Shown here piece after piece: positions 29,971 to 35,132 of a stretch of DNA of 64,000 nucleotides. A program made the position numbers and the translations under genes. Positions within the stretch are counted from its first letter, which is position 1. Every line of letters begins with the position of its first letter. This DNA is from Escherichia phage ST0, in the sequence record MF044457; one strand, 5' to 3'. Below the pieces are notes generated by a model. The model was not told where the DNA came from. It saw nothing but the letters and a program-made list of their open reading frames with translations, and searched no databases.

Positions 29971-31056
<1,086 letters not shown>

Positions 31057-31057
<1 letters not shown>

Positions 31058-31248
31058 TGAAACGATTATATGAAGTGATTGAGGCCATCGAACAGCATAA
31101 AGAATATTTGTTTGTAGTATGGCCTTTAGTAAATGGACGGTTCGGTATTGATGTGCTGGACTATGAACATGAAGAATGGTTGGACGGCGGTATATTTGAT
31201 AACGTCGACCAGGCAATTGAATGGTTAAATGAAAACTATGTACGATAA
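31057..31248 (+). CDS. hypothetical protein (63 aa)
   Basis: ORF with TAATG overlap with pseT. Confidence 0.4.
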
Positions 31249-31453
31249 ACATCATGAAATCGAAGATGAAGCATACAAAATGCTTCGTAAACTAGTGGGA
31301 CTTAATATGAGTCCTACATTAATCAACAAACTCGCAGGAATTCGTAATGATCTGAATACTCGTTACAAAGGTGAATATCATGTAGAGTTTGTTCCTGTAG
31401 GTGAACCGACCGAGCGATTTGTTGTTCGAGTTAAAGTAAATACTGTACACTGA
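31229..31453 (+). CDS. hypothetical protein (74 aa)
   Basis: ORF in the cd.x-type island. Confidence 0.4.
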   Translation: MKTMYDKHHEIEDEAYKMLRKLVGLNMSPTLINKLAGIRNDLNTRYKGEYHVEFVPVGEPTERFVVRVKVNTVH

Positions 31454-31460
31454 GGTAATT

Positions 31461-31736
31461 ATGTTCCCAACTTATTCTGAAATTGTAAAGGTAGTCTTCA
31501 GTCAGATTATTGCTAATAATATGTTTGAAGTGCTTGATAATGCAGCCGAACTCAGAGTTCATGCTCAACTAACTCATGTACTCAATGCTTTGCTCCCAGA
31601 CCAAGTAGATTCTATTGCTATTACTCTTCTCCCTGGGTCTGCACACGTCATAGTGGTATTTGATCTTGACGGCGATTTAGTTATCCAATGTGATATCAAT
31701 TTCGGTACACAAAAAATTGAATGCAAAGCAATTTAA
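31461..31736 (+). CDS. hypothetical protein (91 aa)
   Basis: ORF with SD GAGG. Confidence 0.4.
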   Translation: MFPTYSEIVKVVFSQIIANNMFEVLDNAAELRVHAQLTHVLNALLPDQVDSIAITLLPGSAHVIVVFDLDGDLVIQCDINFGTQKIECKAI

Positions 31737-31739
31737 TGG

Positions 31740-31769
31740 GTTTACAACATGGTGGAGTTGTGATACTAT
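31740..31769 (+). promoter_or_regulatory. early promoter (GTTTAC, 18 nt, TACTAT)
   Basis: Consensus elements immediately after the preceding stop codon. Confidence 0.5.
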
Positions 31770-31797
31770 AACTCTACCAACAAATGAGGAAATAGAA

Positions 31798-32034
31798 ATG
31801 CTAAGTGAAAACCCAATTACAGTACACGAATTTCAGATTAAAGTAAAAGAATTTGCTCAAGCACTCATCAATAAAGTGTCTGAACGTTTCCAAGATGCAA
31901 CATTACGAGTTATTCAAGAATCTCCACGTTCTTTTCTCATAATCGTTAATCCTAAAGATGGTGACCAAATTACTAATCTTAAATTAGGCAGTGATGGTCT
32001 TGTTGAAGCAACTCGAGTATATGGAACACTATAA
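31798..32034 (+). CDS. hypothetical protein (about 78 aa)
   Basis: Start placed at the ATG preceded by SD GAGGAA; the track ORF begins earlier at 31690. Confidence 0.4.
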   Translation: MLSENPITVHEFQIKVKEFAQALINKVSERFQDATLRVIQESPRSFLIIVNPKDGDQITNLKLGSDGLVEATRVYGTL

Positions 32035-32154
32035 TGAGAGCTATCTCATTACTATCGTGAATGCTCATAAATCTGAGCACTACCAACTTAGCCTGTCTAA
32101 TCCGGTTAAAGGTATTGTTGAATCAGAATCTGTTTATATCTCCTAAGGATTGTT

Positions 32155-33147
32155 ATGTTACCTGTCATCAGAAAACTTATTTCTCCAAAAGAACTGGCTG
32201 AGATTATTCCTTTGTCGGAAGCTTACGCATCACAAGTGGCTTCTCATCGCGAACAAGTTAATTCGATTATGAACGGTGAAGACCCACGCAAACTTATTGT
32301 TGTAGGTCCTTGTTCAATTCATGACCCTATTGCTGCTGTTGAATACGGCAAACGTCTGGCTGAACTTCAAACTCGTCTTCCTAATGTTCTGTTAGTGATG
32401 CGCGTTTATTTTGAAAAGCCTCGAACTACCGTAGGTTGGAAAGGTCTTGTAAATGATCCATATCTTGACGGAAGTTTTGATATGAACCACGGTCTTATAG
32501 TTGCACGAACATTGTGTCGTAAACTTCTACGTATGGGACTTCCATTAGCAACTGAAGTATTAGACCCATTCACGATTAAGTATCTTTCTGGTATTTTCTC
32601 ATGGGTTGCTATTGGCGCCCGTACGACTGAAAGTCAGACACATCGTGAAATTGCTTCAGGTCTACCGATGTGCGTAGGCTTCAAGAACGCAACCAATGGT
32701 TCTATTAAAGTAGCTACAGACGCGATGTATAGTGCCGCCTGGCCTCATCGGTATATGGGTATGGACGTCGATGGTACTGTAGGCATTGTTGAAGCTGAAG
32801 GTAATCAGAATACGCATATCGTATTGCGTGGCGGGACTAACGGCCCGAACTATCATTCTTCTGATATTCAAGAAGCTTCTAACAAAGCAAGTGCATTAGG
32901 TCTGAATCATTATGTAATGGTTGACTGTAGCCATGCAAACGCTGATGGGTATTATAGCAATCAAATTGGTATTGGTAAAAATTTAGCAGCTAATGATTTG
33001 GTCAAAGGAATTATGATAGAATCATTCCTACATGAAGGAAATCAAAAAATTTCTGATAATATGTCCTATGGCGTTTCCGTTACCGATGCGTGCATCAGTT
33101 GGGAACAAACTAAAGAGCTGTTAACTTATATTAATAAGGTTCAATAA
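32155..33147 (+). CDS. 3-deoxy-D-arabino-heptulosonate-7-phosphate (DAHP) synthase, class I (AroF/AroG/AroH family)
   Basis: 330 aa; conserved blocks VVGPCSIHDP, MRVYFEKPRTTVGWKGL.NDP, GARTTESQ.HRE.ASGL, VGFKN, HI.LRGG, DCSHAN, S.TDACI.W; SD AAGGA upstream; phage-like AT-rich codon usage. Confidence 0.88.
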   Translation: MLPVIRKLISPKELAEIIPLSEAYASQVASHREQVNSIMNGEDPRKLIVVGPCSIHDPIAAVEYGKRLAELQTRLPNVLLVMRVYFEKPRTTVGWKGLVNDPYLDGSFDMNHGLIVARTLCRKLLRMGLPLATEVLDPFTIKYLSGIFSWVAIGARTTESQTHREIASGLPMCVGFKNATNGSIKVATDAMYSAAWPHRYMGMDVDGTVGIVEAEGNQNTHIVLRGGTNGPNYHSSDIQEASNKASALGLNHYVMVDCSHANADGYYSNQIGIGKNLAANDLVKGIMIESFLHEGNQKISDNMSYGVSVTDACISWEQTKELLTYINKVQ

Positions 33148-33728
33148 TGAAAGCTAGCACATATCTTCAAATTGCTTATTTGATTTCTCAAGAATCAAAA
33201 TGTTGTTCATGGAAAGTTGGTGCCGTCATTGAAAAAGATGGACGCATTATCTCTACTGGATATAATGGCTCACCCGCAGGTGGCGTTAACTGTTGTGAAC
33301 ATGCATCCGAAAATGGTTGGTTGAAGAATAAACCAAGCCCGGTCATCGTTGCTGGACATAAAGAAGGCACTACAGCATTTGGACGGGCAGATAATTTTGT
33401 TTTGGCTAAAGAACATCGGGCCGCTCATAGTGCATGGTCTGCTAATAATGAAATCCATGCAGAATTGAATGCAATTTTGTTTGCAGCTCGTAAAGGTAAT
33501 TCTATTGAAGGTGCTACGTTATATACTACGCTTTCTCCATGTCCTGATTGCACTAAAGCTATTACGCAGTCAGGTATTAAAAAGGTTGTATACGCAGAAT
33601 TATACGATCGATCTCCTGAAAATTGGGCAGACATTCTAAAACAAGCCGGTATTGAAGTAATTCAGTACTCTCGTAATAATCTTCGTTCTCTGAATTGGGA
33701 ACAAATCCGAAACTTTTGTGGTGAATAA
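33147..33728 (+). CDS. cd: dCMP deaminase
   Basis: 193 aa as in T4; zinc-binding deaminase motifs (HAE...PCPDC); recalled T4 Cd similarity. Confidence 0.95.
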   Translation: MKASTYLQIAYLISQESKCCSWKVGAVIEKDGRIISTGYNGSPAGGVNCCEHASENGWLKNKPSPVIVAGHKEGTTAFGRADNFVLAKEHRAAHSAWSANNEIHAELNAILFAARKGNSIEGATLYTTLSPCPDCTKAITQSGIKKVVYAELYDRSPENWADILKQAGIEVIQYSRNNLRSLNWEQIRNFCGE

Positions 33729-34026
33729 TATGATTTTAACTGAACAAGAAACTATGGTTCTTCGTGAACGTATTAAAACTATTCTGTCTGTAGGCGTTCA
33801 TTGTGTTGTATTTGAAAAGGCTAACGGCGAGGTACGCACTATGTTTGCTTCGCGCGATGAACTTGAAGTCAAATATGAAAATAACAATCCAGCAACAGAA
33901 GTTCGTTATGAACCTCGTGAATCAGTTCGAGCATTCGATACCAAGTTAGGCCAGTGGCGTTCTTTCCGCCTTGATAAAGTAATTTCGGTTGATGGTACTC
34001 CGGCGGAACGTTTGCTTCTTATGTAA
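33718..34026 (+). CDS. hypothetical protein (102 aa), 31.x position
   Basis: ORF between cd and gene 31. Confidence 0.45.
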   Translation: MVNNMILTEQETMVLRERIKTILSVGVHCVVFEKANGEVRTMFASRDELEVKYENNNPATEVRYEPRESVRAFDTKLGQWRSFRLDKVISVDGTPAERLLLM

Positions 34027-34083
34027 TATGCTTTACGAATAGTATGGTATTATTAATCTATCGTCAAACAACAAGGAAATAAG

Positions 34084-34416
34084 ATGTCTGAAGTACAACT
34101 CCCAATTCGTGCTGTTGGTGAATATGTCATTCTGGTTTCTGAACCCGCTCAAGCAGGTGATGAAGAAGTTACAGAATCAGGACTTGTGATTGGTAAACGT
34201 GTTCAAGGTGAAGTTCCTGAACTATGTGTAGTTCATTCTGTAGGTCCTGATGTTCCTGAAGGTTTTGTTGAAGTCGGTGATTTGACTCCACTACCAGTTG
34301 GACAAATTCGAAATGTTCCACATCCATTTGTGGCTTTGGGACTTAAACAACCTAAAGAAATTAAACAGAAATTCGTAACATGCCACTATAAAGCTATTCC
34401 ATGTCTTTATAAGTGA
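34084..34416 (+). CDS. 31: co-chaperonin gp31 (GroES analogue for capsid protein folding)
   Basis: 110 aa; recalled near-identity to T4 gp31 over essentially the whole length. Confidence 0.96.
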
Positions 34417-34424
34417 TATAAATA
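34417..34424 (+). promoter_or_regulatory. late promoter (TATAAATA) upstream of rIII
   Basis: Exact TATAAATA on the plus strand directly after the gene 31 stop. Confidence 0.5.
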
Positions 34425-34952: not shown

Positions 34953-35132
34953 ATGGCAAAACAAGCTAAAGCAAAGAAAGCAGTTGAAAAGAAAGTTGAT
35001 GGTACCTCTAAACGCGCTGGATACAAGCGTGGGTCGAACTCTCGTATTAATCAAACAGTTGAGAAGATCATGCGCAGAGCACGTGCAGTTCTTCGAGATG
35101 ATGCTTCTCGATTTGGAAAGGTTGTTGCATAA
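34953..35132 (+). CDS. small highly basic protein (59 aa)
   Basis: ORF MAKQAKAKKAVEKK...; below the 60-aa track threshold; ends directly before a strong terminator; preceded by a 163-bp non-coding stretch. Confidence 0.4.
   Translation: MAKQAKAKKAVEKKVDGTSKRAGYKRGSNSRINQTVEKIMRRARAVLRDDASRFGKVVA

What the first reader, a model, noticed from the sequence alone, without database searches (positions are those of the whole stretch)
32155..33147. Phage-encoded class I DAHP synthase inserted in the pseT-cd accessory interval
A complete 330-aa AroF/AroG/AroH-type DAHP synthase, the first committed enzyme of aromatic amino acid biosynthesis, sits between polynucleotide kinase and dCMP deaminase. All conserved blocks I recognise are present (VVGPCSIHDP, MRVYFEKPRTTVGWKGL, GARTTESQ.HRE, VGFKN, LRGG, SHAN, TDAC). 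T4 itself has only small cd.x ORFs in this position. Codon usage is phage-like and AT-rich, so the gene looks long-resident rather than recently captured. A phage-supplied DAHP synthase could boost or deregulate host shikimate-pathway flux during infection. I cannot tell from sequence alone whether related phages already carry it.
Basis: partly seen in the sequence, partly recalled or inferred. Interest (0 to 1): 0.75.

Follow-up and report, generated by a model that had tools for sequence, protein, structure and literature searches.

The report
Known phage-encoded DAHP synthase gene
A T4-like coliphage of the RB69/JS09 group carries an intact, probably active copy of the enzyme that opens the aromatic amino-acid pathway, with a rebuilt regulatory pocket; the same gene is already annotated in over 200 public phage genomes, and I found no experimental test of its function.

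Summary
Window 32155-33147 (+) is a 330-aa type I-alpha DAHP synthase. It passes the curated family cut-offs, and every metal, PEP and E4P residue is intact. The predicted fold superposes on solved DAHP synthases at TM 0.96.

It is not new. tblastn finds it in 211 phage records, 138 of them at 95% identity or more. The window is 100% identical in protein to Escherichia phage pEK20 (Mosigvirus JS09), where the gene is annotated as DAHP synthase. It sits in the same pseT-cd slot in Kanagawavirus, Marfavirus and Bragavirus. T4 has cd.1 there, and RB69 has nothing.

Three further results:
- The phage clade lacks roughly the first 9-11 N-terminal residues.
- An unbiased scan finds only seven clade-specific fixed substitutions (AroG P150I, Q151K, D155G, L156I, S180P, F209Y, T223A). 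All lie in or next to the feedback-inhibitor pocket, several at positions where engineered changes abolish feedback inhibition.
- Within Mosigvirus, the 1.1-kb cassette missing from RB69 is about ten times less diverged than its flanks and is edged by a 19-nt direct repeat.

Best reading: an early-expressed DAHP synthase with lost or altered feedback control. I found no functional study in the searched library.

The parts
31740..31769 (+). T4-early-type promoter-like site (GTTTAC-N18-TACTAT) between the cd.3 and cd.2 homologues. It is the likely start of the transcript that carries cd.2, the DAHP synthase gene and cd.
   Evidence: Pattern scan; also listed in the sigma-70 scan (TTTACA/TACTAT). 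The T4 record annotates an early promoter (Pe133295) at the same place between cd.2 and cd.3. Not shown experimentally here.
31798..32034 (+). cd.2 homologue (DUF7320), the gene immediately upstream of the cassette.
   Evidence: Pfam DUF7320 E=4e-35. Annotated in pEK20, and as 'similar to Cd.2' in PhAPEC2.
32031..32049 (.). Left copy of a 19-nt direct repeat (ATAATGAGAGCTATCTCAT). It looks like a degenerate copy of the cd.2-stop/cd-start junction.
   Evidence: the repeat finder family D6, 16/19 identical to the right copy. It coincides with the left edge of the indel relative to RB69.
32050..33143 (.). 1,094-bp cassette (leader with a small ORF, plus the DAHP synthase gene). It is absent from RB69 and Shigella phage JK42.
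   Evidence: blastn of the window against RB69: homology at 97% over 31001-32049 and 33144-34100, and nothing in between. RB69 and JK42 cover only 52% of the cd.3-cd query. Variable sites per 100 bp are 0-4 inside, against 8-41 on the left flank and 5-15 on the right.
32021..32146 (+). Small ORF (41 aa), annotated as hypothetical in relatives. It overlaps the end of cd.2 and fills the leader upstream of the DAHP synthase gene. Whether it is a real gene is unknown.
   Evidence: Annotated in pEK20 and AlbertHofmann. Translation. No counterpart is annotated between cd.2 and the synthase gene in CIP9 or F48.
32144..32148 (+). Shine-Dalgarno-like AAGGA, 6 nt upstream of the ATG.
   Evidence: Sequence read directly.
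32155..33147 (+). DAHP synthase (3-deoxy-7-phosphoheptulonate synthase), type I-alpha, 330 aa.
   Evidence: AlphaFold2 model with pLDDT 94.7. Foldseek TM 0.96 to solved DAHP synthases. 100% identical to pEK20 UAW07066.
33144..33162 (.). Right copy of the 19-nt direct repeat (ATAATGAAAGCTAGCACAT). It spans the synthase stop codon and the cd start codon (TAATG overlap).
33147..33728 (+). dCMP deaminase (cd). Its start codon overlaps the synthase stop codon. This adjacency is conserved in Mosigvirus, Kanagawavirus, Marfavirus and a metagenomic T4-like contig.
   Evidence: Pfam; synteny.

Best explanation
The gene encodes a catalytically competent type I-alpha DAHP synthase, which condenses PEP and erythrose-4-phosphate into DAHP and phosphate. 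It is transcribed with the early/middle nucleotide-metabolism genes, from the promoter between cd.3 and cd.2, and its translation is coupled to cd.

Its catalytic barrel is unchanged, but its feedback-inhibition module is not. The tip of the N-terminal extension is missing. The conserved inhibitor-contacting residues of cellular enzymes (P150, Q151, S180, F209 and neighbours, in AroG numbering) are replaced by a different, phage-specific set. The enzyme is therefore most likely insensitive to Phe, Tyr and Trp, or else regulated differently.

During infection, host transcription is shut off and the host isozymes can be neither induced nor released beyond their feedback set-point. In that setting the phage enzyme would keep carbon entering the shikimate pathway. 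Host AroB-AroC would complete the route to chorismate, giving aromatic amino acids and other chorismate products for phage production.

Shown here: family membership, an intact active site, the fold, the remodelled pocket, and conservation and synteny across phage genera.

Inferred: activity, loss of feedback inhibition, early expression and the physiological benefit.
For: Family and fold:
- Pfam and NCBIfam scores are above the curated cut-offs.
- The best solved relative is E. coli AroF, E=1e-104.
- The model has pLDDT 94.7 and superposes on N. meningitidis and E. coli DAHP synthases at TM 0.96, rmsd 1.4 A.

Active site:
- C61, H268, E302 and D326 (metal ligands), R92, K97, G163-A164-R165, K186 and R234 (PEP binding) and K97-P98-R99-T100 (E4P binding) are invariant in all 24 phage-clade and 99 bacterial sequences, apart from T100S in 3 bacteria. 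The assignment of roles to these residues comes from my knowledge of the AroG structures.

Regulatory site:
- The phage clade has 8-12 residues before AroG-P19, against 16-53 in the bacterial sequences; the single bacterial-set value of 8 appears to be the 324-aa Providencia phage sequence P0030.
- An unbiased scan for columns fixed differently in phage (25 sequences) and bacteria (98 sequences) returns only seven: P150I, Q151K, D155G, L156I, S180P, F209Y and T223A.
- PMC9529685 reports AroG P150L as fully feedback-resistant and S180F and F209A/S as resistant. It reports that Q151 and S180 contact the inhibitor, and that D155 forms a salt bridge stabilising that region.
- PMC5879953 lists aroF P148L, aroG P150L and ARO4 Q166K as resistant alleles.

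Selection and age:
- The clade is monophyletic (197/200 NJ bootstraps) and is not nested in enterobacterial AroF.
- Its amino-acid divergence between genera (77%, 66%, 59%) tracks that of pseT, cd, gp31 and rIII.
- Codon usage is phage-like.

Expression context:
- An early-type promoter-like site lies at 31740, matching the T4 early promoter annotated between cd.2 and cd.3.
- There is an SD-like AAGGA.
- No terminator-like site lies on the + strand before cd.
- The stop codon overlaps the cd start codon.
Against: - There is no experimental evidence of activity, expression or feedback behaviour, here or in the searched literature.
- The replaced pocket residues are themselves strongly conserved within the phage clade (23-25 of 25). 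That fits a pocket retained for some purpose (dimer interface, or a different ligand) as well as it fits simple loss of inhibition.
- RB69, JK42 and T4 do without the gene, so it is dispensable at least under laboratory conditions.
- Only the first of seven pathway steps is supplied by the phage.
- Within-Mosigvirus dN/dS values rest on very few substitutions and are uninformative (0.0-0.9).
Confidence: 0.6

Rival explanations
1. The enzyme is active but still allosterically controlled. The pocket has been re-tuned, not destroyed, and binds a different effector. Candidates include another pathway intermediate such as chorismate or prephenate, or a metabolite that reports the state of the infected cell.
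For: The seven clade-specific substitutions are fixed at 96-100% within the phage clade across genera that are only 57-77% identical overall. This looks like constraint rather than decay. The beta-hairpin that forms part of the site is retained in the model (strands 198-203 and 209-214). G211, which I recall as the AroF/Tyr-type signature residue, is retained.
Against: The substitutions fall at the positions whose mutation abolishes inhibition in cellular enzymes. The N-terminal residues that cap the site from the neighbouring subunit are missing. The same residues also belong to the tight-dimer interface, which could explain their conservation without any ligand.
Confidence: 0.15
2. The benefit to the phage is removal of substrates, not supply of aromatic products. 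An irreversible, unregulated sink for erythrose-4-phosphate would pull the non-oxidative pentose-phosphate pathway (fructose-6-P + glyceraldehyde-3-P -> E4P + xylulose-5-P) towards pentose phosphates for nucleotide synthesis. Alternatively, chorismate would feed folate synthesis for the phage thymidylate and hydroxymethyl-dCMP enzymes.
For: The gene is always embedded in the nucleotide-precursor block (frd, td, rnlA, alc, pseT, cd). Its stop codon overlaps or abuts the start of dCMP deaminase in Mosigvirus, Kanagawavirus, Marfavirus and a metagenomic T4-like contig. Many carriers also encode an arabinose-5-phosphate isomerase, so they draw on pentose phosphates.
Against: Gene order in T4-like phages largely reflects timing of expression, not pathway. 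Co-occurrence with the pentose-using DNA-modification genes is not strict. DAHP would accumulate or be converted onward anyway. There are no direct data.
Confidence: 0.12
3. The enzyme uses a different aldose phosphate, for example arabinose-5-phosphate in a KDO8P-synthase-like reaction. In that case it would serve sugar or DNA-hypermodification chemistry linked to the arabinosyl-hydroxymethylcytosine of RB69-type phages.
For: The DAHP synthase and KDO8P synthase families share PF00793 and a fold. The genera carrying the gene overlap those carrying the RB69-type arabinose-5-phosphate isomerase: Mosigvirus, Kanagawavirus, Serratia CHI14, Proteus phiP4-3 (PMC6024577 and PMC8056088).
Against: It passes the aroFGH equivalog model. 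It keeps the KPRT erythrose-4-phosphate motif and every DAHP synthase active-site residue. RB69 itself, the phage in which arabinosylation was shown, lacks the gene but has the isomerase. 25 Klebsiella phages carry the synthase, whereas Klebsiella is absent from the ten commonest host names among isomerase hits (lowest count listed: 3). 57 Acinetobacter phages have the isomerase against 4 records with the synthase.
Confidence: 0.03
4. The gene is a functionless passenger or a decaying relic of a captured host gene.
For: It is dispensable in RB69, JK42 and T4. Within-Mosigvirus dN/dS values are noisy and sometimes high.
Against: The ORF is intact in 211 records. All catalytic residues are invariant across phage genera 57-77% identical. 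Codon usage is phage-adapted. The position is conserved across at least four genera. The clade is deep and monophyletic, with no close cellular donor; the best bacterial hits are 52-55% identical.
Confidence: 0.05

Closest known systems
E. coli AroF (Tyr-sensitive DAHP synthase; PDB 6AGM/6AGL)
   Same: This is the best solved relative (E=1e-104, about 52-54% identity). It has the same type I-alpha barrel, identical metal, PEP and E4P residues, Gly at the position equivalent to AroG-211 and Pro at AroG-147, both as in AroF.
   Different: The phage protein starts about nine residues later. It has Ile, Lys and Pro where AroF has P148, Q152 and S181, plus D->G, F->Y and T->A changes around the inhibitor pocket. 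It also has two short loop deletions near the C-terminus. It is not nested within enterobacterial AroF in the tree.
Engineered feedback-resistant alleles (aroG P150L, S180F, F209A/S, D146N; aroF P148L; yeast ARO4 Q166K)
   Same: The phage clade naturally carries non-wild-type residues at the same positions: P150I, S180P, F209Y and Q151K (alleles from PMC9529685 and PMC5879953). I infer the equivalence of yeast Q166 to AroG Q151 from the 15-residue numbering offset. I did not verify it by alignment.
   Different: The substituting residues are not identical to the engineered ones (I versus L, P versus F, Y versus A/S). D146 is retained. No assay has been done on the phage protein.
The same gene in other T4-like phages (Mosigvirus JS09, HX01, PhAPEC2, phiC120, Bas47 AlbertHofmann; Kanagawavirus CIP9, EcS1, KLB31; Marfavirus F48, Marfa; Bragavirus phiP4-3; Serratia CHI14)
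   Same: It is 100% identical to pEK20, AV112, AV113 and others, and 95% identical or more in 138 records. It occupies the same pseT-cd slot in all genera examined. It is annotated as phospho-2-dehydro-3-deoxyheptonate aldolase or DAHP synthase. It is mentioned as a domain hit in PMC8022965 and as an auxiliary metabolic gene in PMC11845039.
   Different: Nothing of substance. The window copy is simply one member.
Phage auxiliary metabolic genes that supply the rate-limiting step of a host pathway (for example cyanophage transaldolase talC; from my own knowledge)
   Same: A single host-type enzyme at a flux-controlling step, carried by a lytic phage and expressed with early metabolic genes.
   Different: The pathway differs, and here the regulatory module of the enzyme has been specifically altered.

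Membership tests
Type I-alpha DAHP synthase (AroF/AroG/AroH; PF00793, TIGR00034) | Sequence scores above the curated family cut-offs | tested here: met
   PF00793 scores 250 bits against a cut-off of 25.5. TIGR00034 (equivalog) scores 426 against 173. NF009395 scores 454 against 343.
Type I-alpha DAHP synthase (AroF/AroG/AroH; PF00793, TIGR00034) | (beta/alpha)8 barrel superposable on solved type I-alpha enzymes | tested here: met
   AlphaFold2 model with pLDDT 94.7 and pTM 0.92. Foldseek top hits are 4HSO, 5CKS and 1GG1, with TM 0.96 and rmsd 1.4-1.5 A over about 334 columns.
Type I-alpha DAHP synthase (AroF/AroG/AroH; PF00793, TIGR00034) | Metal ligands Cys61, His268, Glu302, Asp326 (AroG numbering) | tested here: met
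   Invariant in the window protein and in all 24 phage-clade sequences.
Type I-alpha DAHP synthase (AroF/AroG/AroH; PF00793, TIGR00034) | PEP-binding residues (Arg92, Lys97, Gly163-Ala164-Arg165, Lys186, Arg234) and the KPRT erythrose-4-phosphate motif | tested here: met
   All invariant. Motifs located.
Type I-alpha DAHP synthase (AroF/AroG/AroH; PF00793, TIGR00034) | Regulatory additions: N-terminal extension plus beta-hairpin forming the inhibitor site | tested here: inconclusive
   The hairpin and the two N-terminal helices are present in the model. The first ~9-11 residues are absent, and seven pocket residues are replaced clade-wide.
Type I-alpha DAHP synthase (AroF/AroG/AroH; PF00793, TIGR00034) | Catalyses PEP + E4P -> DAHP + Pi | not testable with these tools
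   Needs an enzyme assay or complementation of an aroF aroG aroH mutant.
Isozyme assignment: AroF (Tyr), AroG (Phe) or AroH (Trp) | Passes an isozyme-specific model, and keeps the conserved inhibitor contacts (Gln151, Ser180) with the specificity residue at 211 | tested here: not met
   It scores below the AroG-specific cut-off (362 against 568) and the AroH-specific cut-off (384 against 463). Gly at 211 is AroF-like, but Q151K and S180P remove the conserved contacts. It should not be labelled 'Tyr-sensitive', as some GenBank records do.
KDO8P synthase (the other branch of PF00793) | Arabinose-5-phosphate-specific active site; best match to KDO8P synthase models | tested here: not met
   Only aroFGH-type NCBIfam models were returned. 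The KPRT motif and the Cys metal ligand of DAHP synthases are present. That KDO8P synthases lack KPRT is from my own knowledge.
Phage auxiliary metabolic gene | Host-type metabolic enzyme encoded inside a phage genome between bona fide phage genes, with phage-like composition, conserved among related phages | tested here: met
   It is flanked by pseT, cd.2-cd.4 homologues, cd, gene 31 and rIII. GC3 and RSCU are phage-like. It is syntenic in four genera.

The most novel reading that the evidence does not exclude
The phage clade has converted the aromatic-amino-acid feedback pocket into something else. One possibility is a site for a new effector. Another is a permanently 'on' dimer interface. 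In either case the enzyme's real role in infection may lie in nucleotide or DNA-precursor supply rather than amino-acid supply: as an erythrose-4-phosphate sink driving pentose-phosphate formation, or as a chorismate/folate feed. That would explain its invariant coupling to dCMP deaminase. Its spread through Mosigvirus as a discrete 1.1-kb cassette would then mark a recent selective sweep.
Probability: 0.15. Interest if true: 0.6.

Novelty: already known. Interest (0 to 1): 0.27.

Why it matters
As a gene, it is routine. It is identical to an annotated gene in many sequenced coliphages, several of them phage-therapy or biocontrol candidates.

It still deserves a modest follow-up for two reasons.
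- It is a widespread, deeply conserved phage metabolic gene whose function I did not find tested in any paper searched.
- The sequence pattern makes a sharp, cheap prediction: a naturally feedback-insensitive type I-alpha DAHP synthase.

If confirmed, it would show that T4-like phages override the main control point of aromatic biosynthesis. It would also give metabolic engineers a naturally deregulated enzyme. RB69 and JK42 (no cassette) against JS09-type phages (cassette present, flanks 97% identical to RB69) form a natural comparison for measuring the fitness effect.

Tried and rejected
1. Recent capture from the enterobacterial host: rejected. The best bacterial hits are only 52-55% identical. 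The phage clade is monophyletic (197/200) and not nested in AroF. GC3 is 0.29 against 0.51-0.57 for the host genes.

2. Strict linkage to the RB69-type arabinosyl-hmC / UDP-arabinose genes: tested with tblastn of RB69p055 (arabinose-5-phosphate isomerase) and rejected as a rule. RB69 has the isomerase but not the synthase. 25 Klebsiella phages have the synthase, whereas Klebsiella is not among the ten commonest host names for the isomerase. 57 Acinetobacter phages have the isomerase against 4 with the synthase. Neither PMC6024577 nor PMC8056088 mentions the synthase.

3. Literature search for a functional study. Ten searches found only annotation-level mentions, for phiC120 ORF64 and Kanagawavirus KLB31 (16, 61). 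The AV110 early-protein screen does not cover it. The library does not hold most subscription-journal papers, so a study could have been missed.

4. Search of 50%-identity cluster representatives. It added no closer relatives. The top hit is a 799-aa protein with two DAHP synthase stretches.

5. Verification that yeast ARO4 Q166 equals AroG Q151. I tried to reach the yeast chain through a PDB search with P0149, but that protein turned out to be AroG-like. The equivalence stays an inference from numbering.

6. dN/dS within Mosigvirus as a test of purifying selection. There were too few substitutions (2-8 per pair) to be informative. The same calculation did reveal the anomalously low dS of the cassette.

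7. tRNA and Rfam scans of the whole window: nothing found.

8. The 19-nt direct repeat at the cassette edges is no better than about 15 other chance-level repeat families in the same 1.7 kb. Only its position at both indel edges gives it meaning.
Full report
**1. The observation**

The ORF exists exactly as described: 32155..33147 on the + strand, 330 aa, ATG start.

- It lies between polynucleotide kinase/phosphatase (30158-31057; Pfam HAD_PNKP and AAA_33) and dCMP deaminase (33147-33728).
- An AAGGA Shine-Dalgarno-like sequence lies 6 nt upstream of the ATG.
- An in-frame TGA at 32119-32121, with no ATG, GTG or TTG after it, rules out a longer N-terminus (sequence).
- The stop codon overlaps the cd start codon as TAATG.

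**2. What it is**

Family scores are unambiguous. Pfam DAHP_synth_1 scores E=2e-74. NCBIfam TIGR00034 aroFGH, an equivalog model, scores 426 bits against a cut-off of 173. NF009395 scores 454 against 343. The AroG- and AroH-specific models are not passed.

The nearest solved structure by sequence is E. coli AroF (6AGM, E=1e-104), followed by the N. meningitidis enzyme and E. coli AroG.

An AlphaFold2 model built on a 65-sequence alignment has mean pLDDT 94.7 and pTM 0.92. It superposes on solved type I-alpha DAHP synthases at TM 0.96 and rmsd about 1.4 A.

I aligned it with E. coli AroG, AroF and AroH taken from MG1655. Every residue I know to bind metal, PEP or E4P is invariant:
- metal: C61, H268, E302, D326;
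- PEP: R92, K97, G163-A164-R165, K186, R234;
- E4P: K97-P98-R99-T100.

They are invariant in the window protein and in all 24 phage-clade sequences examined.

**3. It is already known**

tblastn against 50,697 phage records finds the protein in 211 records:
- 30 at 99% identity or more;
- 108 at 95-99%;
- 47 at 60-80%;
- 26 below 60%.

The window protein is 100% identical to that of Escherichia phage vB_EcoM-pEK20 (Mosigvirus JS09). [quoted passage not shown]

Other carriers include HX01, JS09, PhAPEC2, phiC120, the O157 typing phages, BASEL phage Bas47 (AlbertHofmann), Kanagawavirus (CIP9, EcS1), Marfavirus (F48, Marfa), Bragavirus (phiP4-3, PM2), Serratia CHI14, and Erwinia and Edwardsiella phages.

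In the literature library I found only annotation-level mentions. The phiC120 paper notes a DAHP synthetase domain in ORF 64 (PMC8022965). A 2025 paper lists it as an auxiliary metabolic gene of the Kanagawavirus KLB31 and speculates that it boosts aromatic amino acids (PMC11845039). No functional study turned up.

**4. History**

The slot is variable:
- T4 has cd.1 between cd.2 and cd.
- RB69 has cd.2 abutting cd.
- The window has the synthase gene.

The gene occupies the same slot in Marfavirus F48, Kanagawavirus CIP9, Bragavirus phiP4-3 (there with two extra small ORFs before cd) and a metagenomic T4-like contig only 57% identical.

Between genera its amino-acid identity to the window copy is 77%, 66% and 59%. 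That falls in the same range as pseT, cd, gp31 and rIII for the same phage pairs.

A neighbour-joining tree puts all 28 phage-type sequences in one clade (197/200 bootstraps). The clade is not nested in enterobacterial AroF. The best bacterial hits are only 52-55% identical. GC3 (0.29) and RSCU (r=0.90 with the window's ORFs) are fully phage-like, whereas E. coli aroF/G/H have GC3 of 0.51-0.57.

Aeromonas phage HJ05 has an unrelated, 38%-identical copy in a different context, probably an independent acquisition.

**5. A twist within Mosigvirus**

RB69 matches the window at 97% over 31001-32049 and over 33144-34100, but lacks the 1,094 bp in between. Shigella phage JK42 shows the same 52% coverage.

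The two edges carry a 19-nt direct repeat, at 32031-32049 and 33144-33162 (16/19 identical). It is in effect a second, degenerate copy of the 'TAATGAAAGCTAGC...' cd start. RB69 has exactly one copy.

I compared five Mosigvirus genomes from at least three species: the window, AlbertHofmann, p000v, LF82-3 and PhAPEC2.
- Variable sites per 100 bp are 8-41 on the left flank and 5-15 in cd.
- They are only 0-4 across 32060-33159.
- Pairwise dS is 0.009-0.032 for the synthase gene against 0.13-0.23 for the adjacent cd gene.

The low-diversity block coincides with the RB69 indel. The simplest reading is that one allele of the cassette spread recently through Mosigvirus by recombination, with occasional loss or non-acquisition in RB69 and JK42. 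This rests on a small sample and needs the full set of about 150 genomes.

**6. The regulatory site**

This is the most informative result for mechanism.

Phage-clade proteins are 319-343 aa, against 341-388 aa for bacterial ones. They have only 8-12 residues before the invariant Pro equivalent to AroG P19. Bacterial sequences have 16-53; the one exception in the bacterial set appears to be another phage sequence, P0030. The residues aligned with AroG D6, D7 and L8 are absent from all 24.

I then scanned every alignment column for positions fixed (90% or more) to one residue in the phage clade and fixed (85% or more) to a different residue in 98 bacterial sequences. Only seven columns qualify: AroG P150->I, Q151->K, D155->G, L156->I, S180->P, F209->Y and T223->A. 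None is in the active site. All are in or beside the inhibitor pocket.

Published work on cellular enzymes says the following:
- AroG P150L is completely feedback-resistant.
- S180F and F209A/S are resistant.
- Q151 and S180 hydrogen-bond the bound amino acid.
- D155 forms a salt bridge that stabilises the region (all PMC9529685).
- aroF P148L and yeast ARO4 Q166K are standard deregulated alleles (PMC5879953).

That yeast Q166 corresponds to AroG Q151 is my inference from the 15-residue numbering offset. I could not verify it. That N-terminal residues of the neighbouring subunit cap the inhibitor is from my memory of the AroG-Phe structure.

The prediction follows: the phage enzyme is not inhibited by Phe, Tyr or Trp in the way host isozymes are.

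The caveat is that the substituted residues are themselves tightly conserved among phages. The pocket may therefore have been re-purposed rather than simply disabled. GenBank labels such as 'Tyr-sensitive' are not justified.

**7. Expression**

A T4-early-type promoter-like site (GTTTAC-N18-TACTAT, 31740-31769) lies between the cd.3 and cd.2 homologues. The T4 record annotates early promoter Pe133295 at that same position.

No terminator-like site lies on the + strand before cd. A MotA-box-like site (34026) and a late promoter motif (34417) appear only further downstream, around gene 31.

The synthase is therefore most likely made early, on one transcript with cd.2 and cd. This is inferred, not shown.

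**8. Mechanism and rivals**

Best explanation (confidence 0.6): an early, catalytically normal DAHP synthase with lost or altered feedback control. It keeps carbon entering the shikimate pathway in a cell whose own aro genes can no longer be transcribed. Host enzymes complete the pathway.

Rivals:
- A re-tuned allosteric site with a new effector (0.15).
- A substrate-sink or folate role tied to nucleotide metabolism, suggested only by the conserved coupling to cd and the nucleotide block (0.12).
- A link to arabinosyl-hmC chemistry or a KDO8P-like reaction (0.03). This is contradicted by the active-site motifs and by imperfect co-occurrence: RB69 has the arabinose-5-phosphate isomerase but not the synthase. 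25 Klebsiella phages carry the synthase, whereas Klebsiella is not among the ten commonest host names for the isomerase. Acinetobacter phages show the opposite pattern.
- A functionless passenger (0.05), contradicted by deep conservation.

**9. Verdict**

The finding is real and correctly interpreted, but the gene is already annotated in more than 200 public phage genomes and has been noted in at least two papers.

What this analysis adds is the remodelled regulatory site, the clean presence/absence cassette relative to RB69, and its low diversity within Mosigvirus. These are testable but incremental. Interest 0.27. Novelty: already known.

Noticed in passing
window 32050-33143 (cassette), compared with flanks 31461-32049 and 33144-33728: Among five Mosigvirus genomes the DAHP synthase cassette has 0-4 variable sites per 100 bp and dS of 0.01-0.03. 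The adjacent cd gene has dS of 0.13-0.23, and the left flank has 8-41 variable sites per 100 bp. The low-diversity block coincides with the segment missing from RB69, which suggests recent horizontal spread or a sweep of one allele.
   Followed up: partly
window 32031-32049 and 33144-33162: A 19-nt imperfect direct repeat (16/19) sits at the two edges of the RB69 indel. The left copy looks like a duplicated start of cd (ATGAGAGCTATC against ATGAAAGCTAGC). RB69 retains a single copy.
   Followed up: partly
window 33718-34026 (+): An ORF with a WYL_2 / Sm-like SH3 beta-barrel domain (Pfam E=2e-9), homologous in position to T4 31.1. Its counterpart is annotated 'tail fibers protein' in pEK20 and F48, which looks like an annotation error.
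   Followed up: no
window 34953-35132 (+): A 59-aa lysine/arginine-rich ORF at the position of T4 30.9. Its pEK20 counterpart is annotated '1,4-alpha-glucan branching enzyme, GH-13-type', which is implausible for a 59-aa protein.
   Followed up: no
window 34026-34053 and 34417-34424: A MotA-box-like middle promoter (ATATGCTTTA...TATTAT) lies just upstream of the gene 31 homologue (34084-34416). A late-promoter motif TATAAATA lies immediately downstream of it.
   Followed up: no
P0001 (protein cluster, 164 member sequences): A 98%-identical copy is labelled by NCBI as '3-deoxy-7-phosphoheptulonate synthase [Escherichia coli]' on a 170,875-bp contig. That contig is evidently a Mosigvirus genome sitting in an E. 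coli assembly, so the host attribution is misleading.
   Followed up: no
P0121 (799 aa) and P0123 (730 aa), from the representative library: The top-scoring representatives are about twice the normal length, and each matches the query in two stretches. They may be tandem-duplicated or fused DAHP synthases of unknown origin.
   Followed up: no
L010:3899-5062 (Aeromonas phage HJ05, 79 kb, not T4-like): A 387-aa DAHP synthase homologue only 38% identical to the window protein, in an unrelated gene context and annotated hypothetical. It is probably an independent acquisition of the same enzyme by another phage lineage.
   Followed up: partly
L008:4457-5082 (Proteus phage phiP4-3): In Bragavirus, two extra small ORFs (112 and 94 aa) lie between the synthase gene and cd. 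The slot upstream of cd therefore accepts further insertions.
   Followed up: no
window 1-64000: No tRNA genes and no Rfam family at gathering threshold anywhere in the 64-kb window.
   Followed up: yes
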